DNA of 64,000 nucleotides from an uncultured Gaiellaceae bacterium (GTDB lineage: Bacteria > Actinomycetota > Thermoleophilia > Gaiellales > Gaiellaceae), in assembly GCA_963787855.1 (NCBI GenBank), contig CAWBER010000010.1:14066-78065 (forward strand). The letters run 5' to 3'. Each line of letters starts with the position of its first letter. The stretch's first letter is position 1. This document shows positions 30,108 to 60,965 of this stretch, in pieces. Under the pieces are notes generated by a model. The model worked only from the letters and a program-made list of their open reading frames with translations. It had not been told where the DNA came from and made no database searches. Both the position numbers and the translations under genes were made by a program.

Positions 30108-30667
30108 GTCGAGCGCAGGAAGTTCTGCGCCATCGTGCTGCCGGTCGCCGTCAATATCGACTCCGGGTGGAACTGCACGCCCTCGATCCGGTATGCGCGG
30201 TGCCTGACTGCCATGACCTCGCCGTCCTCGGTGTGCGCCGTCACGAGCAGCTCGTCAGGCACGTCGACCGCGGCGAGCGAGTGGTAGCGGCCGGCCTCGA
30301 TCTCCTCCGGCAACCCGGCGAAGATCCCCTGTCCGTCGTGATGCACTCGGCTGGCCTTGCCGTGCAGGAGCGCCCGCGCTTGCCCGATCGAGCCGCCGAA
30401 GGCCTCGACGATCGCCTGGTGGCCGAGACAGACGCCGAGCGTGGGCACGGTCGGGCCGAGCGCCTGGATGAGGTGCACCGACACACCTGCATCCGCCGGA
30501 CGGCCCGGCCCGGGCGAGACGACGAGACGGTCCGGCCGGAGAGCCTCAGCTTCCTCGACCGTGATCGCATCGTTGCGGTAGACGACGACCTCGGCGCCGA
30601 GCTCCTCGAACAGGTGGACGAGATTCCACGTGAACGAGTCGTAGTTGTCGAGCACCAGGACCTTCAT
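30104..30667 (-). CDS. Anthranilate/aminodeoxychorismate synthase glutamine amidotransferase subunit (TrpG/PabA family)
   Basis: MKVLVLDNYDSFTWNLV, GVCLGHQAI, GVQFHPES. The ATG overlaps the stop of the upstream component I gene (ATGA). Confidence 0.9.
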   Translation of the reverse strand: MKVLVLDNYDSFTWNLVHLFEELGAEVVVYRNDAITVEEAEALRPDRLVVSPGPGRPADAGVSVHLIQALGPTVPTLGVCLGHQAIVEAFGGSIGQARALLHGKASRVHHDGQGIFAGLPEEIEAGRYHSLAAVDVPDELLVTAHTEDGEVMAVRHRAYRIEGVQFHPESILTATGSTMAQNFLRST

Positions 30668-33963: not shown

Positions 33964-34095
33964 GTCCTCTCCTCGGGTCACCAATGAACCTCGACTCTCC
34001 CCGTCATCATCCCGATCCTTCGCCGGGCGTGCGAACCCTGTAGTGACGAAACTCGTCGCGCGCCATAGGATGCTGCAAGTTCCCCCCGCACCGAC

Positions 34096-48140: not shown

Positions 48141-48776
48141 GTGGCCAAGTGCTACGACCAGTACTGCCCGATGGCGCATGCGCTCGACCTGGTCGGTGAG
48201 CGCTGGTCGTTGCTGATCGTCCGCGAGCTGCTCGAAGACGACCAGCTTCGGTACTCGGATCTCCATGCGCGGCTTCCCGGCTGCGGCACCAACATCCTCG
48301 CTGCGCGGCTGAAGACGCTCGAGCAGGGAGGTGTCGTCCGCCGCCGCAAGCTCGACCCACCGGCGGGGTCGTGGGTCTACGAGCTCACGGAGTACGGCGC
48401 GGGGCTCCGCGAGGTGCTCCACGTGCTCGCGCACTGGGGCGCGCGTTCGCTCCGTCCCCCCGCGACGTCTGGCGACCTCGAGCCGGGCTGGCTCCACGGC
48501 GCGCTCCGCATCGCGCTTCCCGCTGCGAGCTCGCCGAGGCGGATCGAGTTCCGTATCGGCGACGAAGTCGCAGCGGTCGTGGACGACTCCGTCGTCGAAG
48601 GCTCGGTCGACGACCCCGAGGCTGTCGTGACCGGCGACACACCGAGCTTCTATTGCCTGATGGTCGACCGAGACATCGATGCCGTCGCGATCGAGGGCGA
48701 TGCCGAGGCCGTACGCGCGATGCTCGCGTCGCTCCCAGCAGTGCCGGCGACAGAGCCGGCTCTGTCCGCGAGCTAG
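48141..48776 (+). CDS. HxlR-family transcriptional regulator with C-terminal SCP2-like extension
   Basis: CPMAHALDLVGERWSLLIVRELL...RYSDL...LAARLKTLEQGGVV.R. GTG 48141. Divergent from the MFS gene. Confidence 0.85.
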   Translation: MAKCYDQYCPMAHALDLVGERWSLLIVRELLEDDQLRYSDLHARLPGCGTNILAARLKTLEQGGVVRRRKLDPPAGSWVYELTEYGAGLREVLHVLAHWGARSLRPPATSGDLEPGWLHGALRIALPAASSPRRIEFRIGDEVAAVVDDSVVEGSVDDPEAVVTGDTPSFYCLMVDRDIDAVAIEGDAEAVRAMLASLPAVPATEPALSAS

Positions 48777-49355
48777 CGTGCGCCGAAGTCGTCGAGGCGC
48801 CCGGTCTTGCCGCGGATCCCGATCCCGACGCGTCCTGCGGCGACGTACGTCGAGTCCGCGACGCTCCCGAGGAGCGTCCACGTCGACCCCCGCTTGAGCC
48901 ACGCCTCGAGCGTCGACGCCTTCACGCGTAGAAGGAGCGTGTCGCCGGCCGCGAGCTCCTGGAGGATCGTGAGCCTGGTGACCGTCCCGCCCGTGTCGAT
49001 CCGCTCGAGCATCACCTGGTCGGTCCCGGCGAGCTGGTTCGTCCTGAGCACGTAGCCGCTGTGCACCGCCAGGCCGGCGTTCTGGAGCCGCGCGTACAGG
49101 CGGAACTGGTTGCCGTTGCCGGGGAGCGTGGAGACACGCGCCCACACCTCCGTGTCCGGGCCGAGCGCCGGGTTGGTCCGCCAGGCCGTGCACGTGGTCG
49201 TCTTCGTGCACTGGACGGTGTTCGAATTCACGCGCAGGCCCGTCTCCACGGAGCCGCCGATCCCGTTCGACCAGCCGTTGGCCAGGGGGTTCTCGTTGCG
49301 CCGGTTGAAGCTGTCGACGATCGGCAGGGGCTCGACCGGGGCGAGGGCGCCACTC

Positions 49356-49955
49356 GGCGTCGAGACCGTCGCCGTGGCCGAGTAGGGACCGAGGTTGAGC
49401 GCGGCGTCCTGGGCACGCACGCGGTAGGTGTAGGAGGTCGAGGCGGCGAGGCCGGTGTTCGAGAAGCTCGCCGAGGTGCTCGTGCCGACCTCGCCGAAGA
49501 CCGAGCAGCCCGCGCCCGAGCAGCGCTCGATGCGGTACAGGGTCACTCCCACGTTGTCGGAGGCCGCGGCCCAGGTGAGATCGATCTGGGTCGGGCTCAC
49601 CGGGGCCAGGCTCGGTGTTCCGGGCGCGCTCGGCGCCTCGGTGTCGGGCGGCGCCGGCGTCGAGACCGTCGCCGTGGCCGAGTAGGGACCGAGGTTGAGC
49701 GCGGCGTCCTGGGCACGCACGCGGTAGGTGTAGGAGGTCGACGCGACGAGGCCGGTGTTCGAGAAGCTCGTCGAGGTGCTCGTGCCGACCTCGCTGAAGA
49801 CCGAGCAGCCCGCGCCCGGGCAGCGCTCGATGCCGATACGAGGGTCGACTCGCGACGTTGTCCGTCGGCCGCCTGCCAGGAGAGGTCGATCTGCGTCGGG
49901 CTGGCAGCGGCGGCAGGCTCAGGTTCGTTGGCGGGGTGGGCGGCTCGGTGTCGGG
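49356..49955 (-). repeat. Tandem repeat 2 x 300 bp (FN3-type module ...IDLTWAAASDNVGVTLYRIERCSGAGCS...YTYRVRAQDAALNLGPYSATATVSTP)
   Basis: ggcgtcgagaccgtcgccgtggccgagtagggaccgaggttgagcgcggcgtcctgggcacgcacgcggtaggtgtaggaggtcga occurs at 49356 and 49656. The second copy decays with indels after about 49830. Confidence 0.85.
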
Positions 49956-49973
49956 CGGAGGGGCACCCATCGT

Positions 49974-51720
49974 CCGCGCACCGAAGTCGTCGAGCCGGCC
50001 GGTGGTGCCGCGCAGGCCGATGCCGGCGAAGCCGACGGCAGACGTAGGTCGAGTCGGAGACGACGCCGAGGCGAGTCCAGATGGAGCTTGCATTGCGCCA
50101 GATCTCCAGGGTCGAGCCCTTGGCCCGCAAGAGCAGGACGTCGCCCACCGCGAGCTCCTGGTTGACGGTCAAGCGGTTGACGAGGGCGCCGTTGTCCATC
50201 CGCTCGAGGAGAGATCTGGTCGGTCCCCGCAAGCTCGTTGGTGCGCAGCATGTAGCCGTCGTAGGTCGAGGCGCCAGGGCCTCTGCAGACGTGCGAACAG
50301 GCGAATGTGGTTGTTGGTGCCGAGGAGCGGTGGAGATGCGCGTCCACGACCTCGACGTCAGGGCCGTACTGAGGGGTCGTGCGCCAGGCCGTACAGGTCG
50401 TCGTCTTCGAGCAGGCGAGCGTGTTCGAGGTCGTGTAGAGCCCGGTTTCGACGCCACCGATGGCGCTGATCCCGTTCGTCCAGCCCCCGGAGAGCGGGTT
50501 CTCGTTGGGGCGGTCGAAGCTGTCGACCACCGGGAGCGGCTCGACCGGGGTGACGAGGTCGGCGGGCGTCGCGGAGGCCTCGTTGGAGAGCGCGCCCTCG
50601 CCGTTTCCGTTGACCGCGGACACCTTGTAGTAGTAGGTCGTGCCGTTCGAGGCGCTGCCGTCGACGTAGCTCGTCGTCGCGCCCGCGTCGTCGAGGAAGC
50701 TCAGCGACCCGGAGCTCAGGCCGCGGTACACCTTGTAGTTCGTGACCGTGCGACGCCTCCGTCGAAGTTGGGTGCGTTCCAGGCAGGCTTACGCTCGTCG
50801 TCGCCGGCGAACGCGGAGAGGGCGGTCGGCGCCTGCGGCGGGTTTTGGCTGATGCTCCGCGCACCGAAGTCGTCGAGCCGGCCGGTGGTGCCGCGCAGGC
50901 CGATGCCCGCGAAGCCGACGGCAGCGTAGGTCGAGTCGGAGACGACGCCGAGTCGAGTCCAGATGGAGCCTTGCATTGCGCCAGATCTCCAGGGTCGAGC
51001 CCTTGACCCGCAAGAGCAGGACGTCGCCCACCGCGAGCTCCTGGTTGACGGTCAAGCGGTTGACGAGGGCGCCGTTGTCGATCCGCTCGAGGAAGATCTG
51101 GTCGGTCCCCGCAAGCTCGTTGGTGCGCAGCATGTAGCCGTCGTAGGTCGAGGCGCCAGGGCCCTGCAGACGTGCGTACAGGCGAATGTGGTTGTTGGTG
51201 CCGAGGAGCGTGGAGATGCGCGTCCACACCTCGACGTCAGGGCCGTACTGAGGGGTCGTGCGCCAGGCCGTACAGGTCGTCGTCTTCGAGCAGGCGAGCG
51301 TGTTCGAGGTCGTGTAGGAGCCCGGTTTCGACGCCGACCGATGGCGCTGATCCCGTTCGTCCAGCCCCCGGCTCGAGAGCGGGTTCTCGTTGGGGCGGTC
51401 GAAGCTGTCGACCACCGGGAGCGGCTCGACCGGGGTGACGAGGTCGGCGGGCGTCGCGGAGGCCTCGTTGGAGAGCGCGCCCTCGCCGTTTCCGTTGACC
51501 GCGGACACCTTGTAGTAGTAGGTCGTGCCGTTCGAGGCGCTGCCGTCGACGTAGCTCGTCGTCGCGCCCGCGTCGTCGAGGAAGCTCAGCGACCCGGAGC
51601 TCAGGCCGCGGTACACCTTGTAGTTCGTGATCGTGGAGCCTCCGTCGAAGGTCGGCGCGTTCCAGGCGAGGCTCACGCTGTCGTCGCCGGGCGTGGCCGC
51701 GAGGGAGGTGGGGGCGCCCG
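49974..51720 (-). repeat. Tandem repeat 2 x about 883 bp (FN3 plus X module)
   Basis: ccgcgcaccgaagtcgtcgagccggccggtggtgccgcgcaggccgatgcc occurs at 49974 and 50857. The copies are near-identical over about 750 bp, differing by scattered 1-4-nt indels and a few substitutions. A diverged third X module lies at 48776-49355. Confidence 0.85.
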
Positions 51721-52827
51721 GTGGCCCGTCGCCGGGCGGAGCGCCGTCGATCGTGACGCCGAAGCGCTGCAGTACCGGGATGATGGGGTTCCCGATCGTC
51801 AGCTGGCCATCGCCGGCAAAGAGAAGCGCGACCGGCTGATTCCCACCCTGCGTGACCATCAGAGAGCCGGAATCTCCCGGCGCGCTGAACGACGCGCCCG
51901 AGACGGAGATCTGGTTGACGAAACGCGCTTCGTAGCCCGGGAAGCAGAACTCGCCCAACGCGAAGTAGCAGACGTCGACGGAGAAGTTGACGTCTTGCAC
52001 GGCCCCGAGCTGAAAGCCCGTTGTGCGCCCGTACTTCTGCACTCCCATTCCGATCGCAGCGGTCGTGGGCGTCGTGGTCGGAGCGCCGTAGCCGTCGGGC
52101 GGCGTTGCCGTACCGACGTTACCGGCGGAAGTAACCGCGATTGCCGCGTCCATGATGTTGTTGCCGCCGTTGAAGTCGATCGCCTGATAGCCCGCGAGCG
52201 TCGCGATGCGATCCGCCGCATCGGAGCCGCCGTCCTCGACGCCCGGCTGCGTGATCGCGTCGCCAATGCTCGCCGTGTTGACGCCGGCGAAGACGTGGTT
52301 GTTGGACAACGCGTAGACGTTCGTGCCGTCCGTGACGCGCGCACCAAGCGTCCCGGTCGCGAAGTCCGCGAGACCTGACGAGACGCCGATCGGCACCGGA
52401 CGTGGCCACCGGTCGGTGGGCAACGCTCGCGGGTCGAAGCGGCCCGAGCGAACGTGCTCTACCCCCACGCCATCGACGTCGGATGGAATGCCTTCGTCGT
52501 CGTCCGTCAGCTTGTAGACATGGATTACGGTCTTGCCGGCCGTGTTCTCGCCGATCCCGACGCCGACGACGTTCGGCTTGTCGAGCCACTTGTCCGCGTG
52601 CTTCTCCATCGCGGCGATCGCCTTGTCGAGCCCGGGAGGGGCGCCACCGGGCGGGCCCTGTCCGGCGGAGGACGCCGCGAGCGCGCCGACGACGACCGCA
52701 GCCAGCCACAGAACGACCTGCGCCTTCCGGACCACCCCTGCCCTCGCTTCTCGAGCCTGTCCCCTCGGCGCGCACACCCTAGTGCGGCGAAGCACGAATT
52801 ACCAGGGGGATTTCGGAATTCCCCCGA

Positions 52828-54378
52828 TCAGACGAGGCCGCCGGGGTACTTCCACGGCCCCGGCTCGAGCTTGATGCCGCGCTTGCGGCAGAACTCGCGT
52901 ACGGAATCGAGTACGACGCCCGCGCTCCCATGGACACGGCGGCCGAGCAGGTCGAGAACCGCAACGCCCTCTGGCACATCGCCGCGCATGTCGAGCGCGA
53001 GCACGACGGCCGGAGCGTCGACACCACCCCGATAGATCGACGTGAACAGAACGCGCGTCCCTTCCACTTCGAAGGCGTCGTCGTGGACCGCCGTGACCTC
53101 GTGACCCCGCAGCGCGAGGAGCTCGTGGAGATCGACGACCATCCGTCGCGCCAGCTCGAGGCGGCGCGCGTCGGAGAGCTTGTGGCTGGAGCTGCCGGTC
53201 GCCTTCGCGGGGACGCCGATCGCGAACGACCCGGCGGGGATCTCACCCACGACATACGAGTTGGACGCGACGATCGCCTCGGCCCCGATCCTCGCGCCGG
53301 CGTACAGCACCGCACCGAGCCCGACCTGCGAGCGGTCTTCGAGCACGACCGGCGCGAAGCGGTTCTCGAAGCCCTCGAGCACCGAGTGTCCGATGTTGTG
53401 GGTGACGATCAGCGAGCGCATCGTCAGGAAGACCTCGCGGCCGATCAGCACCGGGCGGCAGACGTTCACGAACGCCTCGTCGCCGACGAACGCCAGGTCA
53501 CCGATCGCCAGCGTCGCCCACGGATCCCGGTGGCCGCCGCCGCCGATCCGGACCGAGCGTCCCCCCCAGATCCCCGAGCCGAGGAAGGCGCGGCGGCACC
53601 GCAGCTCGAGGTCGACGCCGAACTGGGTGACAGCTCCGACGGCGAACACCTCCTCGCACACGACGGTCGCGCGCGCGCCGAGCTGGACGCCGTCCGAGAT
53701 CACGATGCGGGGGGCGACGACCAGCGAGCCCTCGCCGAGCTCGACGTCCTCGCCGACCTCGGCCCCGTACTCGCGCAGGACCCGGACCTTCTCGGCGGGC
53801 GGCAGCGCGCGGAAGTCGTCCTGCTCCCGCAGAAGCCGCTCGTAGGACGACGGCTCGAGCGCACCCGACGCCCCGTCGGGATCGAACGTGTCCGGCAGCG
53901 AGACCCCGGCCGTCGAGACGCCTGCAAGCGCCGGGCTCGCCGAGGGCGTCGCGGCGGCCTTCTGAGCGTCGATCAGCGCCTCGACGTCCTTCTCCGTGAT
54001 GAAGCCGCGCTTCTCGACGGACGCGAGGTCGATCCCGTGCAGCTCGGCGAGCTCCACCGCCTTCCGCGTCGCCTTGCGGTCGCCCGCGGGCGGCTTCGGC
54101 GCCGGCTTCTCCTTCGCCTTGGCGTCGATCGACGCGAGCTCGTCGGCGGACTCGGCGACGTAGGCGATCGTCTTGCCCAGCTCGACCTCGATGTTCTCGG
54201 CGTAGAGCTGCACGATCGTCCCCGCGCCGGGCGCCTCGACTTCGACCGTCGCCTTGGTCGTCTCGACCACGCAGACCGGCTGGCCCGCAGTGACTTCCAC
54301 TCTGTCCTCCACGAGCCACTCCGCGAGAAGCGCGTACTCGGTGTTCGCGTCTTCGCGCGTGAGAACGATCTCGAGCAT
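52828..54378 (-). CDS. E2-like lipoyl carrier: lipoyl-attachment domain plus E1/E3-binding (PSBD) domain plus left-handed beta-helix hexapeptide acyltransferase plus unassigned C-terminal domain
   Basis: Lipoyl domain AGQPVCVVETTKATVEVEAPGAGTIV. PSBD ATRKAVELAELHGIDLASVEKRGFITEKDVEALI. Ala/Pro linkers. LbH region IGDLAFVGDEAFVNV...THNIGHSVLEGFENRFAPVVLEDRSQVGLGAVLYAGARIGAEAIVASNSYVVGEIPAGSFAIGVPAK. I saw no DHRxxDG-type E2 core. Confidence 0.8.
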   Translation of the reverse strand: MLEIVLTREDANTEYALLAEWLVEDRVEVTAGQPVCVVETTKATVEVEAPGAGTIVQLYAENIEVELGKTIAYVAESADELASIDAKAKEKPAPKPPAGDRKATRKAVELAELHGIDLASVEKRGFITEKDVEALIDAQKAAATPSASPALAGVSTAGVSLPDTFDPDGASGALEPSSYERLLREQDDFRALPPAEKVRVLREYGAEVGEDVELGEGSLVVAPRIVISDGVQLGARATVVCEEVFAVGAVTQFGVDLELRCRRAFLGSGIWGGRSVRIGGGGHRDPWATLAIGDLAFVGDEAFVNVCRPVLIGREVFLTMRSLIVTHNIGHSVLEGFENRFAPVVLEDRSQVGLGAVLYAGARIGAEAIVASNSYVVGEIPAGSFAIGVPAKATGSSSHKLSDARRLELARRMVVDLHELLALRGHEVTAVHDDAFEVEGTRVLFTSIYRGGVDAPAVVLALDMRGDVPEGVAVLDLLGRRVHGSAGVVLDSVREFCRKRGIKLEPGPWKYPGGLV

Positions 54379-54385
54379 GCGCGCG

Positions 54386-55420
54386 CTAGCTTCGCACGCC
54401 GTCGAGCGCCATCACCGCGGCAACAACGTCCTCGACGCTCGGAAGCATGTCGTCCTCGAGCGGACGGGCCGACGGGATGATCCCGTCGCGCGCGGCGACG
54501 CGCTGAACCGGAGCGCGAAGATGGCTCCACGCAGCCTCCTGGACGCGCGCGGCGATCTCTGCGCCGAAGCCGCCGGTCAGCGTTCCCTCCTCGGCCGTCA
54601 CGAGCGCGCCCGTGCGCGCGACGGACTCGAGCACGGCGTCGAGCTCCATCGGCACGAGCTGGGAGAGCGCGACGACCTCGCAGAAGATCTCATGCTCGAG
54701 CACGAGCTCGGTGACGGCGTCGAGGACGATCTGGAGCATTCCGCCGTACGTGACCACGGTCGCGGCGCCCTCGCTGAAGTCGGTCGCGGAGAAGGTCAGC
54801 GCGGGATAGGGGTCACCGCTCTCGCGCACGGCGAGCTCGCCGATGTGGCCGTCCTCGGGCCGCCGGATCGGCCGGCCGTACAGCAGCTTGTTCTCGATGA
54901 AGAAGACCGGGCGCTCGTCCTCGACCGCGGCTGCCAGCAATGCGCCGACGTCGTGGCACTCGCTCGGGGCGACGACGCAGATGTTGGGGATGCCGAGCAG
55001 GAGCTTCTCCAGAGACTGGCTGTGCGTCGGCCCGTAGCCGCGGCGGCCGCCCATCGGCGTGCGCACGACGAGCGGCACCGTCACCTGGTCGTCGTACATC
55101 TCGCGGAACTTCGAGATCCCGTTCACGATCTGGTCGAGCCCCAGCGCGACGAAGTCACCGAACATGATCTCGAGGATCGGCCGCTGGCCGCGAAGCGCCA
55201 TTCCCGCGGCGACGCCGAAGAGCGAGGCCTCGCTGATCGGCGTGGTGAGGACACGATCCGGGTACGCGTCGGAGAGCCCCTGCGTCACCTTGAACGCCCC
55301 GCCGTACGGGTCGAGCACGTCCTCGCCGAAGAGGACGACGTCGTCGCGCTCCGCGAAGAGCGCATGCAGCGTCTCGTTCAGAGCCTGCACGCCGCGCTTC
55401 CCCTGGGCCGTGGTCGTCAC
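54386..55420 (-). CDS. 2-oxoacid dehydrogenase E1 component, beta subunit (transketolase-like Pyr and C-terminal domains)
   Basis: GTG 55420 overlaps the E1 alpha stop (GTGA). Contains VVLFGEDV..YGGAFKVT.GL, TPISEA...GVAAGMAL.G.RPI.EIMF.DF, and RTPMGG..GYGPTHSQS. Confidence 0.9.
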   Translation of the reverse strand: MTTTAQGKRGVQALNETLHALFAERDDVVLFGEDVLDPYGGAFKVTQGLSDAYPDRVLTTPISEASLFGVAAGMALRGQRPILEIMFGDFVALGLDQIVNGISKFREMYDDQVTVPLVVRTPMGGRRGYGPTHSQSLEKLLLGIPNICVVAPSECHDVGALLAAAVEDERPVFFIENKLLYGRPIRRPEDGHIGELAVRESGDPYPALTFSATDFSEGAATVVTYGGMLQIVLDAVTELVLEHEIFCEVVALSQLVPMELDAVLESVARTGALVTAEEGTLTGGFGAEIAARVQEAAWSHLRAPVQRVAARDGIIPSARPLEDDMLPSVEDVVAAVMALDGVRS

Positions 55421-56316
55421 GCGGCGACTCCGGGAGCTGCGGCCGGTGCTTCGTCGGCCGCCTCGACCGTCTCCGCCAGACGCTCCTCGCACCGCTCCTC
55501 GATCGCCTTCCGCTCCTCGTCGGCGAGCCGACCGCCGGCGACGACCAGCGGATCGCGCGTGCGCCGCTCCTCGATCTCGGCCGGGTCGCGCTGGTCGTCC
55601 GACTTCGAGTGCGGGCTGAAGCGGTAGGTGTTGAGGACGAGGAAGAACGGCGCGCCCGTCTCCCGGATCCGCGCCACTGCGCGACCTGCCGCCTCGTGGA
55701 TCACGTCGACGTCCGTCGTGTCGAGCTCGTCGACCTCGACGCCGAACGCCGCGCCGCGGGCCGCGATCGATCCGGCGAGCTCGAGCTCGACCGGCGTCGA
55801 CTGCGCGTAGTAGTTGTTCTCGACGACGAACAGCACCGGCAGGCGCCACAGCGACGCGAGGTTCAGGGACTCGTAGGTCACGCCCTCGCCGAGCGTGCCG
55901 TCGCCGAGGAACACCGTCGAGACCGCGCCCGTGCCCTTGCGCTTCTCCGCGAGCGCGATGCCCGTCCCGACCGGGACGATGCTCCCGAGGACGCCGTTCG
56001 AATAGAAGTTCCCCTTGCAAAGGTGCTGACTACCACCCTTGCCGCCGCAGACGCCCGGCGCCTTCCCCATCACCTCGCACAGGAGGCCGAACGCGTCGTC
56101 GGTGAAGGCGAGGTAGTGCCCGTGGCAGCGGTGGTTGGAGAAGATCGTGTCGACATCAGGGTCGAGGTGGTCGATCAGGCCGACCGCGTTCGCCTCCTGC
56201 CCGATGTACGTGTGCGTCGTGCCCACGAGCTTCCCGAGCGAGAAGAGGTCGAGGAGGGTCTCCTCGAAGCGGCGGATGAAGAACATCCGCTCGTAGAACG
56301 TCGCAAGCTTGTCCAT
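55417..56316 (-). CDS. 2-oxoacid dehydrogenase E1 component, alpha subunit (TPP-binding)
   Basis: YIGQEA, HRCHGH, GGKGGSQH, and the TPP motif FLGDGTLGEGVTYESLNLASLWRLPVLFVVENNYYA. Confidence 0.9.
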   Translation of the reverse strand: MDKLATFYERMFFIRRFEETLLDLFSLGKLVGTTHTYIGQEANAVGLIDHLDPDVDTIFSNHRCHGHYLAFTDDAFGLLCEVMGKAPGVCGGKGGSQHLCKGNFYSNGVLGSIVPVGTGIALAEKRKGTGAVSTVFLGDGTLGEGVTYESLNLASLWRLPVLFVVENNYYAQSTPVELELAGSIAARGAAFGVEVDELDTTDVDVIHEAAGRAVARIRETGAPFFLVLNTYRFSPHSKSDDQRDPAEIEERRTRDPLVVAGGRLADEERKAIEERCEERLAETVEAADEAPAAAPGVAA

Positions 56317-57488
56317 CAGAGGTAGCCGAGGTCGGAGAGACGCTTCGCGACGGTCGCCTCTTCCTCCTCCGTCAGCTCGTGCGTCTCCGCGCTCTCCAGC
56401 TCACGGAAGACGATGTCGCGCAGCTCCTGCGCCGCGTCCGAGCGCGGGTGCAGCTCACGCGGGTCCTCGTCGAGGCGGTACGCCTCCTCCTCGCCGCTCT
56501 CTACGTGGAGGATCAGCTTCCAGGGCGGCTTGCGCACCGCGAGCTTCGTAAGTGCGCCCTTGTCGGTCCCCGCGATGATCGCGTCGCGGTCGCCGTCGAC
56601 GTGGAGCAGCGACTCGCCGTCCGTCTCACGCGCCGGAAGGCCTGCGAGCTCGAGCAGCGTCGGCATGAGGTCGACCGAGCGCACCTGGTGGTCGACGACC
56701 GCCGAATCGAGCCGGCCGGGAGCGGAGAGGATCAGCGGCACCTCGACGATCTCGTCGTAAAGCGTCGCGCCGTGCATGTGGTACACGCCCTGCACGTCGT
56801 CCTTCGCGCGGAAGCGCTCGCCCCACGACTCTCCGTGGTCGGAGAGGAAGGCGACGACGGTGTTCTCGCGCCGACCGAGCGTCTCGAGCTCCCCGAGGAA
56901 CGAGGCGACGAGCACTTCGGACTGCCGCTCGACCGCCGAGCGATAGCGCTCGCGCATCGCTTCGAGCGCGGACGCCGAATCGGACTGGATGCCCTCGATG
57001 ACCTCCTGCTTCGCTGCGAGCCAGTTCTTGCGGTCGGCATGGACGATGTCGTAGGGCATGTGCGTCGCCCAGTTGTGCACGTACAGGAAGAAAGGCGTGT
57101 CCCGCTTCGCGCGCAGCCACTCGAACGCGCCGTCGAGGGACTCGGACGTGCCGAGGACGTTCGCCTCGGGCAGGTCCTTGAAGAGGTAGTTCGTGTCGAA
57201 CACGAAGCTCGCGACGTCGTAGCCGTGGGCGGAGAACGCGCGGAAGGCAGTCTCGATCGACGGGTCGAGCGTCGCGTCCCAGTGCAGGTAGCCGTGGTGG
57301 TGCGCGTACATCCCGGTCACGATCGACGTGGTCGAGGGCGCGGTCCACGGCGCGGCGCTGATCGCATGCGCGTAGCGAACGCCCCCCGCGGCGAGCTCGT
57401 CGATCGTCCCCGTGTTCACGTACCGGGCGCCGTAGCAGCCGAGATGGTCCGTGCGCAGCGCATCGGAGACGTAGACGACGACGTTCAC
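56316..57488 (-). CDS. Cytoplasmic sulfatase-family (alkaline phosphatase superfamily) protein lacking the formylglycine motif
   Basis: NVVVYVSDALRTDHLGCYG and SDHGESWGE are sulfatase-fold metal-site motifs. At the C/S-x-P-x-R position the sequence is PWTAPSTTSIVTG. No signal peptide. The stop overlaps the E1 alpha ATG by 1 nt. Confidence 0.85.
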   Translation of the reverse strand: MNVVVYVSDALRTDHLGCYGARYVNTGTIDELAAGGVRYAHAISAAPWTAPSTTSIVTGMYAHHHGYLHWDATLDPSIETAFRAFSAHGYDVASFVFDTNYLFKDLPEANVLGTSESLDGAFEWLRAKRDTPFFLYVHNWATHMPYDIVHADRKNWLAAKQEVIEGIQSDSASALEAMRERYRSAVERQSEVLVASFLGELETLGRRENTVVAFLSDHGESWGERFRAKDDVQGVYHMHGATLYDEIVEVPLILSAPGRLDSAVVDHQVRSVDLMPTLLELAGLPARETDGESLLHVDGDRDAIIAGTDKGALTKLAVRKPPWKLILHVESGEEEAYRLDEDPRELHPRSDAAQELRDIVFRELESAETHELTEEEEATVAKRLSDLGYL

Positions 57489-57829
57489 AGCGCGGCCGAT
57501 TGTAGTGACGGGTCCGTGAGCTCCTACGATCAGAGGCGGGTGGCCTCGTCACGCGACATCGACTCCGCGATCGATCGCCTCGACGAGGCGTTGCGCACGA
57601 CTGGTCTCGCGGGTCTCGAGCCGCCGAGCGAAGTCCCGCCCGTGGCGGAGGTCGCCGACGCACCTCGACGTCTGGTGTCCTGCAGGCACGGGCGCTGGCC
57701 GATGACCTCGAAGGAGCGCAGGCGGCGGCGAGCTCGTTCGTCGACCGCTTGACGCAGGCGCGGCCGTCAGCCGTGGCGACCGACCTGCGGCCGCTCGACT
57801 GAGTCGTCGCAGAGACCTCGACGCGTAGC

Positions 57830-59044
57830 GTGCCGCCGGTGCGGAGGCAGGCACCTCTCTACGCCCTGTACGCCGCGGAGACGATCTCGCTCGCGGGAAA
57901 CGCCGTTGCCCAGCTCGCCATCCCCTGGTACGTCCTGATCACGACCGGGAGCGCAACGCTCACCGGTCTCGCCGTCTTCTTCAACTTCCTCCCGATCGTG
58001 CTCGCGGCCTTCTTCGGCGGCGTTGTCGTCGACCGGCTCGGCTTCCGGGCGACGAGCATCGTCGCCGACCTCGCCAGCGCGGCTGCCGTCGCGGCGATTC
58101 CGCTCATCGAGTCGACGGTCGGAATCGAGCTCTGGCAGCTCTTCGCACTCGTGTTCCTCGGTGCGCTCCTGGACGCGCCGGGAGCGACCGCGCGTGCCGC
58201 ACTCCTCCCCGACGTCGTGGAGCTTGCGGGCGCCCGGATGGAGCGCGCAAGCGGGATCCGGTCGGCGATCCAGCAGAGCGCGATCCTCATCGGCGCACCG
58301 GTCGGCGGCATTCTGGTCGCGGCTTTCGGGGCGACGACAGCGCTGTGGCTCGACGCGGCGAGCTTCCTCGTCTCCGCGACGCTCGTCGGATTCTTCATAC
58401 CGCGTCCGGCCGCAGCCGCTGCGGGTGAGGAGGAGGCGCCGGGCAGGTTCTTCGAGGAGCTCACCGAGGGCATGCGGTTCATCTGGCAGCGGCGCGTCCT
58501 GCGGGCCGTCGTCCTCATGGTGCTCCTCTCCAACCTCCTGGAGGCGCCGTTCCCGGTGGTGATGTCGGTCTTCGCCCGTGAGGAGTACGGCAGCGCGTCC
58601 GACCTCGGGCTCATGTTCGGCGTCTTTGGAGGCGGCGCGCTCGCGGGATCCCTCGTCTACAGCGCGATCGGGCACCGGCTGCCGCGGCGGCGGACATTCC
58701 TGTGGTGCTTCGCGGGCATACCGATCGCGTACTTGGCGCTCGCGACCCTGCCGCCGCTACCCGTTGCACTCGTCGCGCTCGCCGTCACCGGCCTCGTGGC
58801 TGGCCCGATCAACCCGCTGCTCTTCACCGTCCTGACCGAGATCGTCCCGACGCAGTTGCGCGGACGCGTCTTCGGCGCTGTGCGAGGCGGCGCCTGGGCT
58901 GCGATCCCCCTCGGCACACTTGTCGGCGGGGTGCTCGTGGGCGCAATCGGTGTCGCGCCGACGTTTCTCGCGATCGGCGTGCTCCTCGCGCTCGTCGTCG
59001 CCCACGGCTTCGTCAACCCCGCGTTCCGGGAGATGGACCCGTGA
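57830..59044 (+). CDS. MFS transporter (12-TM, EntS/MFS_3-like)
   Basis: 404 aa, 12 hydrophobic segments, DRLGFR motif after TM2. Confidence 0.85.
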   Translation: MPPVRRQAPLYALYAAETISLAGNAVAQLAIPWYVLITTGSATLTGLAVFFNFLPIVLAAFFGGVVVDRLGFRATSIVADLASAAAVAAIPLIESTVGIELWQLFALVFLGALLDAPGATARAALLPDVVELAGARMERASGIRSAIQQSAILIGAPVGGILVAAFGATTALWLDAASFLVSATLVGFFIPRPAAAAAGEEEAPGRFFEELTEGMRFIWQRRVLRAVVLMVLLSNLLEAPFPVVMSVFAREEYGSASDLGLMFGVFGGGALAGSLVYSAIGHRLPRRRTFLWCFAGIPIAYLALATLPPLPVALVALAVTGLVAGPINPLLFTVLTEIVPTQLRGRVFGAVRGGAWAAIPLGTLVGGVLVGAIGVAPTFLAIGVLLALVVAHGFVNPAFREMDP

Positions 59045-59583
59045 GGGCGGTGATCCTCGTCGAGGGGATCAGCGACCAACACGCTGTCGAGGCGCTCGCA
59101 GTGCGGCGCGGCCGCGACCTGGGTGAGGAGGACGTCTCGATCGTGCCGATAGGGGGTGCGCACGCGATCGCTGCTGCGCTCGAGCGGTTCGGCCCGAGCG
59201 GGCTCGACGTCACACTGGCCGGCCTCTGCGACGTCGGCGAGGAGCACGCATTCAGGCGCGGCCTCGAGCGGGCGGGACTGGGCGCAAACCTCGACCGGGC
59301 CGGCATGGAGGCGCTCGGCTTCTACGTGTGCGACACCGACCTCGAGCACGAACTGGTGCGGGCGCTCGGCGTCGACGCCGTGCTGCGGATCGTCGACGAG
59401 CAGCGCGAGCTGAGCTCGTTCCGCACCTTCCAGAAGCAGCCGGCGAAGCGGGAGCTCGACCTCGAGGAGCAGCTGTGGCGGTTCATGTGGAACCGGAAGA
59501 TCCGGTACGCGACGTTGCTGGTCGAGGCGCTCGATCTCGAGCGTGTGCCGCGCCCGCTCGACGGCGTCCTAGCTCACGTCTGA
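59041..59583 (+). CDS. Stand-alone TOPRIM (OLD-nuclease-type) domain protein
   Basis: The GTG overlaps the MFS stop (GTGA). Contains VILVEGISDQHAVEALA...IVPIGGA...GLCDVGEE...YVCDTDLEHEL. The conserved E and DxD acidic positions of Toprim are present, but there is no ATPase domain. Confidence 0.6.
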   Translation: MRAVILVEGISDQHAVEALAVRRGRDLGEEDVSIVPIGGAHAIAAALERFGPSGLDVTLAGLCDVGEEHAFRRGLERAGLGANLDRAGMEALGFYVCDTDLEHELVRALGVDAVLRIVDEQRELSSFRTFQKQPAKRELDLEEQLWRFMWNRKIRYATLLVEALDLERVPRPLDGVLAHV

Positions 59584-60965
59584 GCGGCGAGAAGCGGCGA
59601 CCCACGCATCCCCGCCGGCTCCTCGATCCCGAGGATCTCGAGCACGGTCGGAGCGATGTCGAGCAGGTGTGCGTCGCGCCGCCCGGCGGCGCCGATGCCC
59701 GGGCCGGCGACGACATACAGGCCGTCCTGAGCGTGGTTCGCGTCATCAGGCCCCGTGTCGTTCTCGAGTGTCTGGATGCCCTCGTCGCCGCCGATGGTTC
59801 CGACCGAGCGCCAGAGGAGGTCGCCGAAGACGACGATGAGGTCGGGTGCGACGCCCTGCGGCTCGCCGTACAGCTCCTCCGGCTTGTAGACGGTGGTGGG
59901 GATCGGGTTTCCGGCGTCGTCCGGGATGGCCGCGATGCGGCGCGCAAGATCGTCGCGAACGGCCTCGTACTCCTCGGGCGGGATCGTCCCTTCCGGCTCG
60001 CGGCCGGCGACGTTCAGGAAGACGCGCGCGTAGTAGCCGCCTTCCCCCCACGCTGTCGTTCGCGACCAGTCGACCCCTACGTCGCGCAACGACGAAACGC
60101 CGTTCGGCTCGGCGAGCGTCGCGAGCAACTCCTCGCGGCGCAGCCACTCGTTGATCCGGATCCCTCCGTCGAGGCGCTTCGCGCCGTGGTCGGAAAGGAC
60201 GAAGACGACGGTGTCGTCGTCGGCGTGCTCGAGCAGCTTCCCGATGAGGCCATCCACGTGGCGGTGGTAGTCGAGGATCGCGCTCTCGTACGCGTTCCCG
60301 GGCTCGTGCTTGCGGTGCTCGGGGTCCATGAACTTCCAGAAGCCGTGGTGCATGCGGTCCGGCCCCATCTCGACCATCGCGAACAGCGTCCACGGCTTCG
60401 TCTCCAGGAGGTGCTCGGCGAGCGCGAAGCGCCGGTCGGTCATCTCGTACACCTGGCGCAGCAGGTACTCCTTGTCGTCCGTGCGGAAGTCCTTGGTGTC
60501 GAAGAGGTACTCGCCGACAACGTCTGCGATCTCGTCCTTCAGCGCTGCCGGGTACGTGTACTTCGAATCGAGCGACGGTGTGAGGAAGCAGCCCACCATG
60601 ACGCCGTTCAGCGGCTTCGGCGGGTAGCAGCCGGGCACCGAGAGCACGATCGACGAGCCGCCCGCGCGCGTGACGAGATCCCAGAGCCGCGGCTCCTTGA
60701 TCGCGGTCGACATCGCGATGAAGCCGCCGTCGTACGTGTGGTCGGAGCGATTCCGGAAGCCATAGACGCCGAGGTCTCCGGGCGTCTTCGACGACATCAT
60801 GCAGGACCACGCAGGCACGGTGATCGGCGGGATGACCGAGGTCAGGCGACCGTACGTCCCGCGCTCCATGAGCCGCGAGATCGTCGGCAGCTCGTCGCGC
60901 CAGCGCTCGAGGACAAGCGAGGGCTCGGCGCAGTCGAGCCCGATGAGCATGACCTTCCGCGGCAC
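59574..60965 (-). CDS. Alkaline phosphatase superfamily protein, type I phosphodiesterase/nucleotide pyrophosphatase (NPP) type
   Basis: VMLIGLDCAEP, PPITVPAWSCMMS (Thr nucleophile context), VLSDHGA. 463 aa, no signal peptide. Confidence 0.8.
   Translation of the reverse strand: MPRKVMLIGLDCAEPSLVLERWRDELPTISRLMERGTYGRLTSVIPPITVPAWSCMMSSKTPGDLGVYGFRNRSDHTYDGGFIAMSTAIKEPRLWDLVTRAGGSSIVLSVPGCYPPKPLNGVMVGCFLTPSLDSKYTYPAALKDEIADVVGEYLFDTKDFRTDDKEYLLRQVYEMTDRRFALAEHLLETKPWTLFAMVEMGPDRMHHGFWKFMDPEHRKHEPGNAYESAILDYHRHVDGLIGKLLEHADDDTVVFVLSDHGAKRLDGGIRINEWLRREELLATLAEPNGVSSLRDVGVDWSRTTAWGEGGYYARVFLNVAGREPEGTIPPEEYEAVRDDLARRIAAIPDDAGNPIPTTVYKPEELYGEPQGVAPDLIVVFGDLLWRSVGTIGGDEGIQTLENDTGPDDANHAQDGLYVVAGPGIGAAGRRDAHLLDIAPTVLEILGIEEPAGMRGSPLLAAQT

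What the first reader, a model, noticed from the sequence alone, without database searches (positions are those of the whole stretch)
52828..57488. Tightly coupled four-gene operon: AP-superfamily hydrolase, E1 alpha, E1 beta, lipoyl-LbH protein; no E3 and no canonical E2 nearby
The four minus-strand genes are joined by a 1-nt overlap (TGATG at 56316), a 4-nt overlap (GTGA at 55417-55420) and a 7-nt gap (54379-54385), so they are almost certainly co-translated.

A heterotetramer-type E1 (TPP motif GDGTLGEG...VENN in alpha) is paired only with the unusual lipoyl-LbH protein and with a phosphatase/sulfatase-fold enzyme. No dihydrolipoamide dehydrogenase is in the window.

The flanks hold an MFS exporter-type gene, a second AP-superfamily enzyme, and a PAS plus MBL pair. 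This looks like a self-contained pathway acting on a phosphorylated or sulfated 2-oxoacid-derived metabolite, or making an acylated product. That pathway reading is inference only.
Basis: partly seen in the sequence, partly recalled or inferred. Interest (0 to 1): 0.65.

Follow-up and report, generated by a model that had tools for sequence, protein, structure and literature searches.

The report
Lipoyl-tethered hexapeptide acyltransferase operon
Soil Gaiellales bacteria carry a conserved four-gene operon that pairs a thiamine-dependent E1 enzyme with an undescribed protein whose usual E2 catalytic core is replaced by a hexapeptide-repeat acyltransferase, which suggests a coenzyme-A-independent way to attach a small acyl group to a sugar-like acceptor.

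Summary
The window has no E3, canonical E2 core, ACP or PIG-L.

The linkage is not incidental. The four-gene set is collinear in 70 of 72 assessable Thermoleophilia loci. A strongly conserved TACAAT block sits just before the first start codon.

The last protein has a lipoyl domain with invariant Lys42, a peripheral-subunit-binding domain, a maltose/galactoside-acetyltransferase-like LbH domain with invariant Thr326-His327, and a new C-terminal domain. This architecture occurs in several phyla. There it sits beside E1 alpha/beta in 22 of 25 loci, often next to a PIG-L deacetylase inside polysaccharide loci.

The partner E1s group with RenH, a QncN/QncL-type E1 that makes glycolyl units, with modest support, and apart from acetoin/PDH E1s.

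The "sulfatase" has an invariant Thr where sulfatases have formylglycine, so it is probably a phosphoesterase. A second, NPP-like enzyme (59574-60965) is a loosely linked fifth member.

Best reading: E1 loads a short acyl group onto the lipoyl arm, and the LbH domain passes it directly to a non-CoA acceptor. The acyl group and the acceptor are unknown. I found no description of this family.

The parts
57489..57510 (-). Conserved promoter-like block cGTCACTACAATCGGCCGCGCt. TACAAT lies at -16..-11 from the GTG start, which implies a very short or absent leader.
   Evidence: Near-identical block in 67 of 69 Thermoleophilia loci, while the sequence further upstream diverges. Window sequence. The generic sigma-70 scan found nothing, so the promoter function is inferred.
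56316..57488 (-). Cytoplasmic sulfatase-fold (alkaline-phosphatase superfamily) enzyme, 390 aa. Thr49 sits at the nucleophile position (WTAPSTT). Probably a phosphoesterase or phosphotransferase, not a sulfatase.
   Evidence: Pfam Sulfatase 121 bits. PDB alignments place Thr opposite the formylglycine Cys and Thr opposite the motif Arg. Thr is invariant in all orthologues. No signal peptide is visible in the sequence.
55417..56316 (-). E1 alpha subunit (ThDP-binding), 299 aa. Start codon overlaps the upstream stop by 1 nt.
   Evidence: E1_dh 189 bits. PDH_E1_alph_y scores 250 bits, below the 394-bit cutoff. 51% identical to RenH against at most 44% to acetoin/PDH-type E1 alpha. Tree.
54386..55420 (-). 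E1 beta subunit, 344 aa. GTG start overlaps the E1 alpha stop by 4 nt.
   Evidence: Transket_pyr plus Transketolase_C. Junction.
54154..54378 (-). Lipoyl domain of the lipoyl-LbH protein (residues 1-75), with lipoyl-lysine Lys42 in the ETTKA motif.
   Evidence: Biotin_lipoyl E=2.5e-10. K42 is invariant in 41 family members down to 22% identity. AF2 predicts a beta-barrel with pLDDT about 90.
53953..54072 (-). Peripheral-subunit-binding domain (residues about 103-142), the docking site for E1 and/or E3.
   Evidence: The family profile aligns here to the PSBD of E. coli and other E2p chains. PF02817 is called in some members. AF2 predicts helices at 105-113 and 129-142.
53191..53766 (-). Left-handed beta-helix acyltransferase domain (residues about 205-396) with invariant Thr326-His327.
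   Evidence: Hexapep. WcaF family E=4.5e-15. Foldseek and profile hits to maltose/galactoside O-acetyltransferases, VCA0836 and NeuO. Invariant columns.
52831..53181 (-). Conserved alpha/beta C-terminal domain (residues about 400-516, motif REFxRKRGIxxxPxxW[KR]Y) of unknown role.
   Evidence: No Pfam hit. Conserved across the family. AF2 pLDDT above 90. Also present in lipoyl-less Streptomyces homologues.
52805..52825 (-). Hairpin GGGGGA-9 nt-TCCCCC starting 2 nt after the stop codon. Possible terminator without a T-tract.
   Evidence: Read directly from the sequence. The terminator scan did not call it. The downstream gene varies among relatives.
59574..60965 (-). NPP-like alkaline-phosphatase-superfamily phosphodiesterase (COG3379 type), 463 aa. 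A loosely linked fifth member, separated here from the operon by an inserted MFS_3 gene and an OLD-like TOPRIM ORF on the other strand.
   Evidence: Phosphodiest 159 bits. Foldseek top hits are ENPP1/3/5 and Xac NPP; the model has pLDDT 69 and pTM 0.72. Directly upstream on the same strand in 12 loci, and within 8 kb upstream in 49 of 65. One of only five genes conserved in deep-branching loci.

Best explanation
The operon encodes a swinging-arm acyl-transfer machine whose catalytic end has been exchanged.

Shown:
- The last gene product carries the N-terminal half of an E2 (lipoyl domain with Lys42, then a peripheral-subunit-binding domain).
- In place of the chloramphenicol-acetyltransferase-like E2 core it carries a maltose/galactoside-acetyltransferase-type left-handed beta-helix domain and a new C-terminal domain.
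- It is always encoded next to its own E1 alpha/beta pair.

Inferred mechanism:
1. The ThDP-dependent E1 (alpha2beta2) docks on the binding domain. It makes a ThDP-bound C2 or short intermediate from a small 2-oxo acid, or, like its relatives QncN/RenH, from a ketose phosphate.
2. E1 reductively acylates the lipoyl group on Lys42.
3. The arm swings into the trimeric LbH active site. There His327 activates a hydroxyl or amine of a non-CoA acceptor, which takes the acyl group.
4. A housekeeping E3, bound in trans through the same binding domain, re-oxidises the dihydrolipoyl arm.

In most other phyla the acceptor is probably an amino sugar freshly de-N-acetylated by the adjacent PIG-L enzyme. 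That is an N-acetyl to N-acyl exchange on a surface-polysaccharide precursor. It argues that the acyl group is not plain acetyl, and glycolyl is the leading candidate.

In Gaiellales and other Thermoleophilia the PIG-L partner is replaced by a cytoplasmic Thr-nucleophile sulfatase-fold enzyme, usually with an NPP-like phosphodiesterase nearby. I infer that these unmask or produce the acceptor by cleaving a phosphodiester or phosphomonoester, for example from a nucleotide-activated or phosphorylated sugar-like precursor, and that the product is then acylated.

The identities of the acyl group and of the acceptor are not established.
For: Architecture:
- Pfam and NCBIfam domain calls.
- AF2 model with pLDDT 91.
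- Foldseek and profile matches to E2 N-termini including the PSBD, and to MAT/GAT/VCA0836/NeuO LbH acetyltransferases.
- Invariant K42, T326 and H327 in 41 members down to 22% identity.

Family breadth:
- 146 clusters at 50% identity score below E=1e-30, many of them full length, at 26-69% identity among the 150 best listed.
- Named members include Chloroflexi, Zixibacteria, Planctomycetota, Acidobacteriota and Saccharimonadales.

Linkage:
- 70 of 72 Thermoleophilia loci are collinear.
- Outside that class, E1 alpha and beta lie on the same strand in 22 of 25 assessable loci, mostly less than 140 nt from the lipoyl-LbH gene.
- PIG-L occurs in 27 of 47 loci, always on the same strand and mostly abutting.
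- These loci sit among Wzz/Wzy/Bac_transf/GT4/NeuB/PseG/DegT/Wzt genes.
- PIG-L and SULF/PDE are mutually exclusive partners.

Direct transfer rather than CoA:
- Lipoyl-less LbH plus C-terminal-domain homologues in Streptomyces sit beside PIG-L or in amino-sugar clusters with no E1. The catalytic module is therefore tied to PIG-L-type substrates on its own.

E1 lineage:
- The concatenated alpha+beta NJ tree puts all lipoyl-LbH-linked E1s with RenH and a Paenibacillus E2+ACP cassette (bootstrap 55-72), apart from acetoin/PDH types.
- The N-terminal arm of RenI aligns with this protein's arm, while RenI's core is a 2-oxoacid_dh domain.
- RenH/RenI and SclQ1-4 are assigned by homology to QncN/QncL, for which those papers cite a ketose-to-glycolyl activity (PMC13249901, PMC6335953).

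AP enzymes:
- The sulfatase-fold protein has Thr at the nucleophile position.
- The second enzyme has an NPP-like fold.
Against: - No biochemical data exist for any member.
- Deep nodes of the E1 tree have only moderate bootstrap support, and the outgroup sample is small and taken from plasmids.
- A maltose-acetyltransferase-like LbH normally binds CoA, so transfer to CoA cannot be excluded from sequence alone.
- One relative (L086) has PDE-SULF-lipoyl-LbH with no E1 within 9 kb, so E1 linkage is not absolute.
- PIG-L is missing from about 40% of assessable non-Thermoleophilia loci.
- The Gaiellales loci contain no glycosyltransferase or other sugar gene, so a sugar acceptor there is only an extrapolation.
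- The roles assigned to the two AP-superfamily enzymes rest on fold and nucleophile identity alone. The PDE model is of moderate quality (pLDDT 69).
- No E3 is encoded nearby in any of the loci searched for it: LpdA tblastn of the window and the 82 Thermoleophilia loci, and the Pfam gene lists of L083-L088. Re-oxidation in trans is therefore assumed.
Confidence: 0.5

Rival explanations
1. The lipoyl-LbH protein is a non-homologous replacement of a normal E2. The LbH domain moves the acyl group from the lipoyl arm to CoA, so the operon is a small dedicated dehydrogenase complex. It would supply one particular acyl-CoA, which other enzymes then use.
For: The nearest structural and sequence relatives of the LbH domain are acetyl-CoA-dependent enzymes. 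The lipoyl plus PSBD arm is exactly that of E2. Thioester exchange is chemically easy, and both E2 cores and LbH enzymes are trimers with interface active sites (established knowledge). Some loci contain additional acyltransferases that could use such an acyl-CoA.
Against: The minimal conserved module in other phyla is E1, lipoyl-LbH and PIG-L, with no second acyltransferase (L085). That leaves the deacetylated amine without an acylating enzyme unless the LbH does it. Lipoyl-less homologues of the same LbH plus C-terminal module sit beside PIG-L without any E1. No acyl-CoA-consuming enzyme is conserved in the Thermoleophilia loci.
Confidence: 0.2
2. The E1 oxidatively decarboxylates a phosphorylated, phosphonylated or sulfonated 2-oxo acid, such as phosphohydroxypyruvate, phosphonopyruvate or sulfopyruvate. 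The two AP-superfamily enzymes then remove the phosphoryl or sulfuryl group from the substrate or product. The pathway would be catabolic or salvage.
For: Two AP-superfamily hydrolases are the lineage-specific partners of E1 and lipoyl-LbH. PF01663 also contains phosphonoacetate hydrolase PhnA (my own knowledge). A PEP_mutase-family gene lies near the module in L086.
Against: The same E1 clade and the same lipoyl-LbH family work with PIG-L in polysaccharide loci in other phyla, where no phospho or sulfo chemistry is implied. The sulfatase-fold protein lacks the formylglycine motif, so sulfate esters are unlikely. No transaminase, transporter or regulator typical of phosphonate or sulfonate catabolism is conserved. 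The PEP_mutase-family hit scores best as a methylisocitrate-lyase type, far below cutoff, and it is absent from the window and the other loci.
Confidence: 0.1
3. It is an ordinary pyruvate or acetoin dehydrogenase E1 that happens to lie beside unrelated genes. The real E2 and E3 are elsewhere, and the lipoyl-LbH protein is an unrelated acetyltransferase with a decorative lipoyl domain.
For: The best solved-structure match of E1 alpha is human PDH E1 alpha (144 bits). NCBIfam's top model is PDH E1 alpha.
Against: The score is far below the equivalog cutoff (250 against 394 bits). E1 to lipoyl-LbH adjacency is conserved across phyla. The coding regions overlap. The lipoyl lysine is invariant and a PSBD is present. 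The E1s group away from E1s that have LpdA or a canonical E2.
Confidence: 0.04

Closest known systems
Canonical 2-oxoacid dehydrogenase complexes (E1 alpha2beta2 / E2 / E3; PDH, BCKDH, acetoin dehydrogenase)
   Same: Heterotetramer-type ThDP E1. A lipoyl domain with the lipoyl-lysine, followed by a peripheral-subunit-binding domain, on the acyltransferase subunit. Swinging-arm logic.
   Different: The E2 catalytic core (PF00198, CAT-like fold) is absent. An LbH acyltransferase and a novel C-terminal domain take its place. No E3 is encoded nearby in any of the loci searched for it. E1 alpha scores below the PDH equivalog cutoff. The likely acceptor is not CoA.
QncN/QncL/QncM of quinocarcin biosynthesis, with homologues RenH/RenI (renieramycin) and SclQ1-4 (scleric acid)
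   Same: RenH, a QncN/QncL-family E1, is the closest functionally assigned relative of the E1 found here (RenH 51% identity, grouped in the same clade). The lipoyl arm resembles RenI's. Both are dedicated E1-plus-lipoyl systems that supply a C2 acyl unit to a biosynthetic acceptor rather than to central metabolism. No E3 gene is annotated in the stretches of the RenH, Paenibacillus, Tropicibacter and Rhodococcus cassettes viewed here.
   Different: Those systems keep the canonical E2 catalytic domain and hand the glycolyl unit to an ACP for an NRPS line (PMC6335953, PMC13249901). Here there is no ACP and the catalytic domain is an LbH. The donor substrate (ketose phosphate or 2-oxo acid) is untested here.
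Maltose/galactoside O-acetyltransferase class of hexapeptide (LbH) acyltransferases (MAT, LacA/GAT, WcaF, NeuO, VCA0836)
   Same: Fold, hexapeptide repeats and a His-bearing loop after the central coils. Typical sugar acceptors.
   Different: Those are free-standing proteins of about 180-200 aa that use acetyl-CoA. Here the domain is fused behind a lipoyl-PSBD arm and followed by an extra alpha/beta domain. The donor is inferred to be the protein's own acyl-lipoyl group.
LpxA / LpxD (LbH acyltransferases that use acyl-ACP)
   Same: They are a precedent for an LbH enzyme taking its acyl group from a protein-tethered thioester instead of CoA. In lipid A synthesis the LbH step also follows a deacetylase (LpxC then LpxD), which parallels PIG-L then lipoyl-LbH. 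This comparison rests on my own knowledge.
   Different: The carrier there is a separate ACP with phosphopantetheine, and the acyl chains are long. No sequence relationship closer than the shared fold was found (Foldseek hits).
AcoC-type acetoin dehydrogenase E2 (NCBIfam PRK14875)
   Same: It was the second-best NCBIfam hit of the N-terminal arm. From memory, some AcoC proteins also carry a lipoyl domain fused to a non-CAT catalytic fold (alpha/beta hydrolase). If so, E2 core replacement has a precedent.
   Different: The replacing fold differs. AcoC systems are catabolic and include E3. The architectural point about AcoC comes from memory and was not tested here.
S1 formylglycine sulfatases, and Thr-nucleophile AP-superfamily phosphoryl transferases (NPP, LtaS, EptA)
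   Same: The first gene has the sulfatase fold and metal-site motifs. The flank gene has the NPP fold.
   Different: The sulfatase-fold protein has Thr instead of Cys/Ser-derived formylglycine and lacks the motif Arg. In this it resembles the phosphoryl-transfer members, but unlike LtaS and EptA it is soluble and cytoplasmic.

Membership tests
2-oxoacid dehydrogenase E2 (dihydrolipoyl acyltransferase) | Lipoyl domain with a conserved lipoyl-lysine | tested here: met
   PF00364 E=2.5e-10. K42 invariant in 41 sequences. ETTKA is a lipoyl-type motif, not a biotin-type motif.
2-oxoacid dehydrogenase E2 (dihydrolipoyl acyltransferase) | Peripheral-subunit-binding domain | tested here: met
   Family profile positions about 100-145 align to the PSBD of E2p chains. 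PF02817 is called in some members. It is below threshold for the window protein alone.
2-oxoacid dehydrogenase E2 (dihydrolipoyl acyltransferase) | Catalytic 2-oxoacid_dh (CAT-like) core domain, PF00198 | tested here: not met
   No PF00198 hit. An LbH domain is there instead. tblastn with four E2 cores found nothing in the window.
Heterotetrameric ThDP-dependent E1 (alpha/beta) | E1_dh alpha subunit with the GDG...NN ThDP motif, and a beta subunit with Transket_pyr plus Transketolase_C | tested here: met
Pyruvate dehydrogenase E1 alpha (NCBIfam equivalog TIGR03182) | Score at or above the curated equivalog cutoff | tested here: not met
   250 bits against a cutoff of 394. The beta subunit scores 223 bits against a cutoff of 321.
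QncN/QncL/QncM-type glycolyl-unit system | E1 belongs to the same clade as a member of the system | tested here: inconclusive
   Groups with RenH in NJ trees (bootstrap 55-72 for the inclusive clade). 51% identity to RenH against at most 44% to the others. QncN itself was not available.
QncN/QncL/QncM-type glycolyl-unit system | Canonical E2 catalytic domain and a dedicated ACP acceptor | tested here: not met
   RenI has PF00198 and this protein does not. There is no ACP in the window or in 82 related loci.
QncN/QncL/QncM-type glycolyl-unit system | Ketose phosphate as C2 donor, giving glycolyl-S-lipoyl | not testable with these tools
   Needs enzyme assays.
Hexapeptide (LbH) acyltransferases, MAT/GAT/WcaF class | Left-handed beta-helix with hexapeptide repeats and a catalytic His on the loop after the central coils | tested here: met
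   PF00132. WcaF family E=4.5e-15. AF2 and Foldseek. T326-H327 invariant. The catalytic role of the His is inferred.
Hexapeptide (LbH) acyltransferases, MAT/GAT/WcaF class | Acetyl-CoA as acyl donor | not testable with these tools
   The fused lipoyl arm and dedicated E1 suggest a different donor. Binding assays are needed.
S1 (formylglycine) sulfatases | C/S-x-P-x-R motif that is converted to formylglycine | tested here: not met
   WTAPSTT aligns to CSPTR / ASPTR of solved sulfatases, with Cys replaced by Thr and Arg replaced by Thr. Thr is invariant in orthologues.
S1 (formylglycine) sulfatases | Sulfatase fold with an N-terminal metal-binding Asp and a DHG motif | tested here: met
   PF00884 121 bits. 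The motifs SDALRTDH and LSDHGE are visible.
Nucleotide pyrophosphatase/phosphodiesterase (NPP) family (flank gene 59574-60965) | NPP-type AP-superfamily core with a Thr nucleophile | tested here: inconclusive
   PF01663 159 bits. Foldseek top hits are ENPP1/3/5 and Xac NPP, TM about 0.5-0.6, from a model with pLDDT 69. The candidate nucleophile T49 lies in the invariant PPITVPAW but in a low-confidence part of the model. No solved structure matches by sequence.

The most novel reading that the evidence does not exclude
Lipoyl-LbH proteins are a new, phylogenetically widespread class of swinging-arm acyltransferase that bypasses coenzyme A altogether. A dedicated QncN-like E1 makes a non-standard acyl group, most plausibly glycolyl, from a ketose phosphate or hydroxy-oxo acid directly on the enzyme's own lipoyl arm. 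The fused LbH domain installs it on a freshly unmasked amine or hydroxyl of a cell-surface sugar. The partner is PIG-L in most phyla. In Gaiellales, one of the most abundant uncultured soil lineages, the partners are Thr-nucleophile phosphoesterases. That would imply a lineage-wide, still unknown acylated envelope component or metabolite.
Probability: 0.35. Interest if true: 0.8.

Novelty: new variant of a known kind. Interest (0 to 1): 0.65.

Why it matters
E2 cores of 2-oxoacid dehydrogenase complexes are regarded as invariant CAT-fold assemblies that always deliver acyl groups to CoA, or to an ACP in the QncL systems. A family that keeps the E1, the lipoyl arm and the binding domain but swaps the core for a sugar-type LbH acyltransferase would widen what swinging-arm chemistry is used for.

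It would also explain how bacteria without the matching acyl-CoA can decorate glycans with unusual N- or O-acyl groups.

The family recurs in surface-polysaccharide loci of poorly studied phyla (Acidobacteriota, Chloroflexi, Planctomycetota, Zixibacteria, Saccharimonadales). A variant is nearly universal in the Thermoleophilia genomes sampled, which are abundant in soil metagenomes. The product is therefore likely a widespread but unrecognised cell-envelope or metabolite modification.

The system is small, four or five soluble proteins, and can be tested directly in vitro.

Tried and rejected
- Exact-sequence look-up of the window protein found no record.
- The first attempt to scan genomes with the 41-sequence alignment failed because no conserved stretch was long enough.
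Distant contexts had to come from protein look-ups and one metagenome scan.
- Generic promoter and terminator scans found nothing useful. The conserved -10 block appeared only by comparing orthologous upstream regions.
- Literature searches found no description of the family. They combined lipoyl, hexapeptide or beta-helix, E1 and polysaccharide, N-acyl or PIG-L terms.
- Peng et al. 2012 (PMC3365175) is not held, so the QncN/QncL biochemistry is cited through PMC6335953 and PMC13249901.
- A PDB sequence search with the NPP-like protein gave no hit. Its AF2 model from a shallow alignment is only moderate.
- A true sulfatase was considered and rejected, because the formylglycine motif is missing.
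- The downstream fn3/protease gene was rejected as an operon member. A hairpin lies between the genes, the neighbour varies among relatives, and the gene is frame-disrupted here.
- MFS, PAS and MBL were rejected as pathway genes because they are not conserved in deep-branching loci.
- A biotinyl domain was rejected because the motif is ETTKA, not MKM.
- A phosphonate link through the PEP_mutase-family gene in L086 was rejected. It scores as a weak methylisocitrate-lyase-like protein and occurs in one locus only.

Full report
**Observation**

The window has about 70% G+C. Its closest relatives are Gaiellaceae MAGs (Actinomycetota, Thermoleophilia).
- 56316-57488, Sulfatase family.
- 55417-56316, E1_dh.
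- 54386-55420, Transket_pyr plus Transketolase_C.
- 52828-54378, Biotin_lipoyl plus Hexapep.

The junctions read TGATG, GTGA and a 7-nt spacer. I scanned about 34 other window ORFs with Pfam. I also ran tblastn with LpdA, four E2 cores, an ACP and two PIG-L proteins. Apart from the protein's own lipoyl domain, the window holds no E3, canonical E2, ACP or PIG-L.

**Boundaries**

A 22-nt block, cGTCACTACAATC(C/G)GCCGCGCt, ends one base before the first start codon. It is almost invariant in 67 of 69 orthologous loci, while the DNA further upstream diverges. With TACAAT at -16 to -11, it looks like a -10 element that gives a nearly leaderless transcript. It is present even where another gene abuts upstream, so the four genes have their own promoter.

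Two bases after the last stop codon lies a GGGGGA/TCCCCC hairpin. The next gene varies among relatives. In this window it is broken by frame changes relative to its 1201-aa orthologue.

**Conservation in the lineage**

A genome scan returned 80 Thermoleophilia loci whose lipoyl-LbH proteins are 55-91% identical to this one. Of the 72 Thermoleophilia loci in hand with at least 3.4 kb upstream, 70 have the collinear set. The other two carry the sulfatase-fold gene downstream on the opposite strand. One locus has the whole set duplicated in tandem (L067).

In deep-branching members only five genes are conserved: these four plus the Phosphodiest-family gene, which here lies at 59574-60965. That gene is directly upstream on the same strand in 12 loci and within 8 kb upstream in 49 of 65. 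In this window an MFS_3 gene and an OLD-like TOPRIM ORF on the other strand separate it from the operon.

**The key protein**

An exhaustive search of 1.8 billion cluster representatives found 146 clusters below E=1e-30. Among the 150 best listed, many are full length, at 26-69% identity. An alignment of 41 members shows invariant Lys42 (ETTKA/ETSKA), Thr326-His327 and a conserved C-terminal motif REFLRKRGIRFxPxxWRY.

AlphaFold (pLDDT 91) gives these parts:
- Lipoyl barrel, residues 1-75.
- Two short helices, 105-142.
- Helical linker.
- Left-handed beta-helix, about 205-396.
- Alpha/beta domain, 403-499.

A family profile searched against PDB sequences aligns positions 1-145 to the lipoyl domain plus peripheral-subunit-binding domain of E2p chains. 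Positions about 255-390 align to maltose/galactoside O-acetyltransferases, and Foldseek agrees. So the protein is an E2 arm on a sugar-type LbH acyltransferase. The CAT-like E2 core is absent.

**Context in other phyla**

Named members come from Chloroflexi, Zixibacteria, Planctomycetota, Acidobacteriota (Terracidiphilus), Saccharimonadales and Actinomycetia. All are annotated only as hypothetical or "biotin/lipoyl-containing".

Six long contigs and 54 metagenome loci were mapped with tblastn:
- E1 alpha and beta, often fused, lie on the same strand in 22 of 25 loci with enough upstream sequence, usually less than 140 nt away.
- A PIG-L family deacetylase is present in 27 of 47 assessable loci. 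It is always on the same strand and mostly abuts either E1 alpha or the lipoyl-LbH gene.
- The surroundings are surface-polysaccharide loci: Wzz, Poly_export, Bac_transf, Wzy_C, GT4, Polysacc_synt, Wzt and DegT.
- One locus is a pseudaminic-acid-type locus with NeuB, CTP_transf_3 and PseG (191 bits, above cutoff).

PIG-L and the AP-superfamily partners exclude each other. None of the 82 Thermoleophilia loci has PIG-L. None of the other loci has SULF or PDE except L086. L086 is a 59%-identical relative with PDE-SULF-lipoyl-LbH and no E1 within 9 kb.

Streptomyces plasmids encode homologues of only the LbH plus C-terminal part. One sits beside a PIG-L gene and another in an amino-sugar-type cluster, with no E1.

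**The E1**

E1 alpha scores 250 bits on the PDH E1 alpha equivalog against a cutoff of 394. Its best solved relative is human PDH E1 alpha.

Among 72,556 plasmids the best match is RenH of the renieramycin cluster at 51% identity. Acetoin/PDH-type E1 alphas reach 44% at most. RenH is a fused E1 alpha-beta. Its neighbour RenI has a lipoyl domain plus the canonical 2-oxoacid_dh core, and RenI's N-terminal arm aligns with the arm of this protein.

RenH/RenI and SclQ1-4 are described as homologues of QncN/QncL (Qcn7/Qcn9). These convert ketose phosphates into a glycolyl unit on a lipoyl arm and pass it to an ACP (PMC13249901, PMC6335953).

In a concatenated alpha+beta NJ tree (559 columns, 300 bootstraps), all 20 lipoyl-LbH-linked E1s, RenH and a Paenibacillus E2+ACP cassette form one clade (bootstrap 55-72). 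That clade is separate from the C. difficile acetoin-type E1 with LpdA and from the Thermus, Enterococcus, Acinetobacter, Sinorhizobium, Rhodococcus and Tropicibacter E1s.

**The AP-superfamily partners**

Alignments to solved sulfatases put Thr49 where they have the formylglycine-forming Cys or Ser, and Thr where they have the motif Arg. The WT[AC]PS motif is invariant in all orthologues. In the alkaline-phosphatase superfamily a Thr nucleophile goes with phosphoryl transfer (NPP, LtaS, EptA, PhnA; established knowledge), so a sulfatase function is unlikely.

The flank gene is COG3379, "predicted AlkP superfamily phosphohydrolase/phosphomutase". Its model (pLDDT 69) matches ENPP1/3/5 and bacterial NPP best.

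Both proteins start directly at the first core strand, without a signal peptide.

**Mechanism**

Domain architecture, invariant residues, gene linkage and phyletic pattern are shown. The rest is inferred:
1. E1 reductively acylates lipoyl-Lys42.
2. The arm delivers the acyl group to the LbH site, where His327 activates an acceptor hydroxyl or amine.
3. A housekeeping E3 docks on the binding domain and re-oxidises the arm.

Pairing with a deacetylase makes sense only if the new acyl group differs from acetyl. Together with the RenH/QncN affinity of the E1, this makes glycolyl the leading candidate (my estimate about 40%), ahead of acetyl and other short acyl groups.

In Thermoleophilia the sulfatase-fold enzyme occupies the position PIG-L holds in many other loci, immediately upstream of E1 alpha. 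I therefore infer an analogous unmasking role: cleavage of a phosphoester, with the NPP-like enzyme acting on a phosphodiester or nucleotide-activated precursor, to expose the group that is then acylated. This last step is the weakest part of the model, because no sugar-metabolism gene is conserved in these loci.

**Rivals**

- The LbH simply replaces the E2 core and makes an acyl-CoA (about 0.2).
- Incidental linkage of an ordinary E1 (below 0.05).

**Novelty**

Five full-text searches found no description of a lipoyl-LbH protein, and database names are generic. The system uses known parts and known swinging-arm logic in a new combination, so I rate it a new variant of a known kind. Interest is moderate to high because the family is widespread, sits in glycan loci of little-studied phyla, is nearly universal in the Thermoleophilia genomes sampled, and can be tested with four soluble proteins.

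Noticed in passing
window 57489-57510 (-): A 22-nt block, cGTCACTACAATC(C/G)GCCGCGCt, ends 1 nt before the first start codon. It is nearly invariant in 67 of 69 orthologous loci while the DNA upstream of it diverges. The conservation extends beyond the -10-like hexamer on both sides, so it may also be an operator or discriminator.
   Followed up: partly
window 48767-52795 (-): The secreted S1-protease-like/fn3 gene downstream of the operon is split by frame changes and has an Arg-rich out-of-frame tail, compared with the intact 1201-aa orthologue in L002. It is either a pseudogene or an assembly error in a repetitive fn3 region.
   Followed up: partly
window 57830-59580 (+): An MFS_3 (Tap/EntS-like) efflux gene and an OLD-like TOPRIM ORF (82% identical to the L002 copy) lie on the opposite strand between the NPP-like gene and the operon. 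Deep-branching relatives lack this insert. A 342-aa gene of unknown function found at this spot in L001 and L002 is absent from the window.
   Followed up: partly
L067 1066-11406: Tandem duplication of the complete four-gene set in one Thermoleophilia MAG. It could be a real duplication or an assembly artefact.
   Followed up: no
L086 6301-10575: A 59%-identical relative has the NPP-like gene (in two frames), the sulfatase-fold gene and the lipoyl-LbH gene in a row, but no E1 within 9 kb. A PEP_mutase-family gene lies divergently next to them.
   Followed up: partly
window 31948-34917 (-): A 989-aa ORF combines a Phage_holin_4_2 membrane domain with a Phosphodiest domain. It is a third AP-superfamily protein in the window and probably sits in the membrane.
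   Followed up: no
L089 8824-10032 and L090 8986-10038 (Streptomyces plasmids): These are homologues of only the LbH plus C-terminal half, without the lipoyl arm. One is beside a PIG-L deacetylase. The other is in a cluster with DegT aminotransferase, sugar-phosphate isomerase and an adenylating enzyme. They are annotated as 'DapH/DapD/GlmU-related' or hypothetical.
   Followed up: partly
L152 3492-5515 (Solidesulfovibrio magneticus pDMC1): An E1 alpha/beta pair with no E2 of any kind lies inside a sugar-modification cluster (GT2, radical SAM, NUDIX, kinase, GDP-fucose synthase, DegT). This is another sugar-linked use of an E1 that appears undescribed.
   Followed up: no
L149, L150, L148 (Tropicibacter, Rhodococcus and Paenibacillus plasmids): Cassettes of E1 (alpha/beta), a canonical E2 and an ACP, in the Tropicibacter and Rhodococcus loci preceded by acsA, are annotated as pdhA/pyruvate dehydrogenase. 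Their layout looks like QncN/L/M-type acyl-unit suppliers, so they are probably misnamed.
   Followed up: no
window 26364-31926 (-): A run of aromatic amino-acid genes (prephenate dehydrogenase with ACT, class II DAHP synthase, and anthranilate synthase components I and II). It is ordinary housekeeping context and unrelated to the operon.
   Followed up: no
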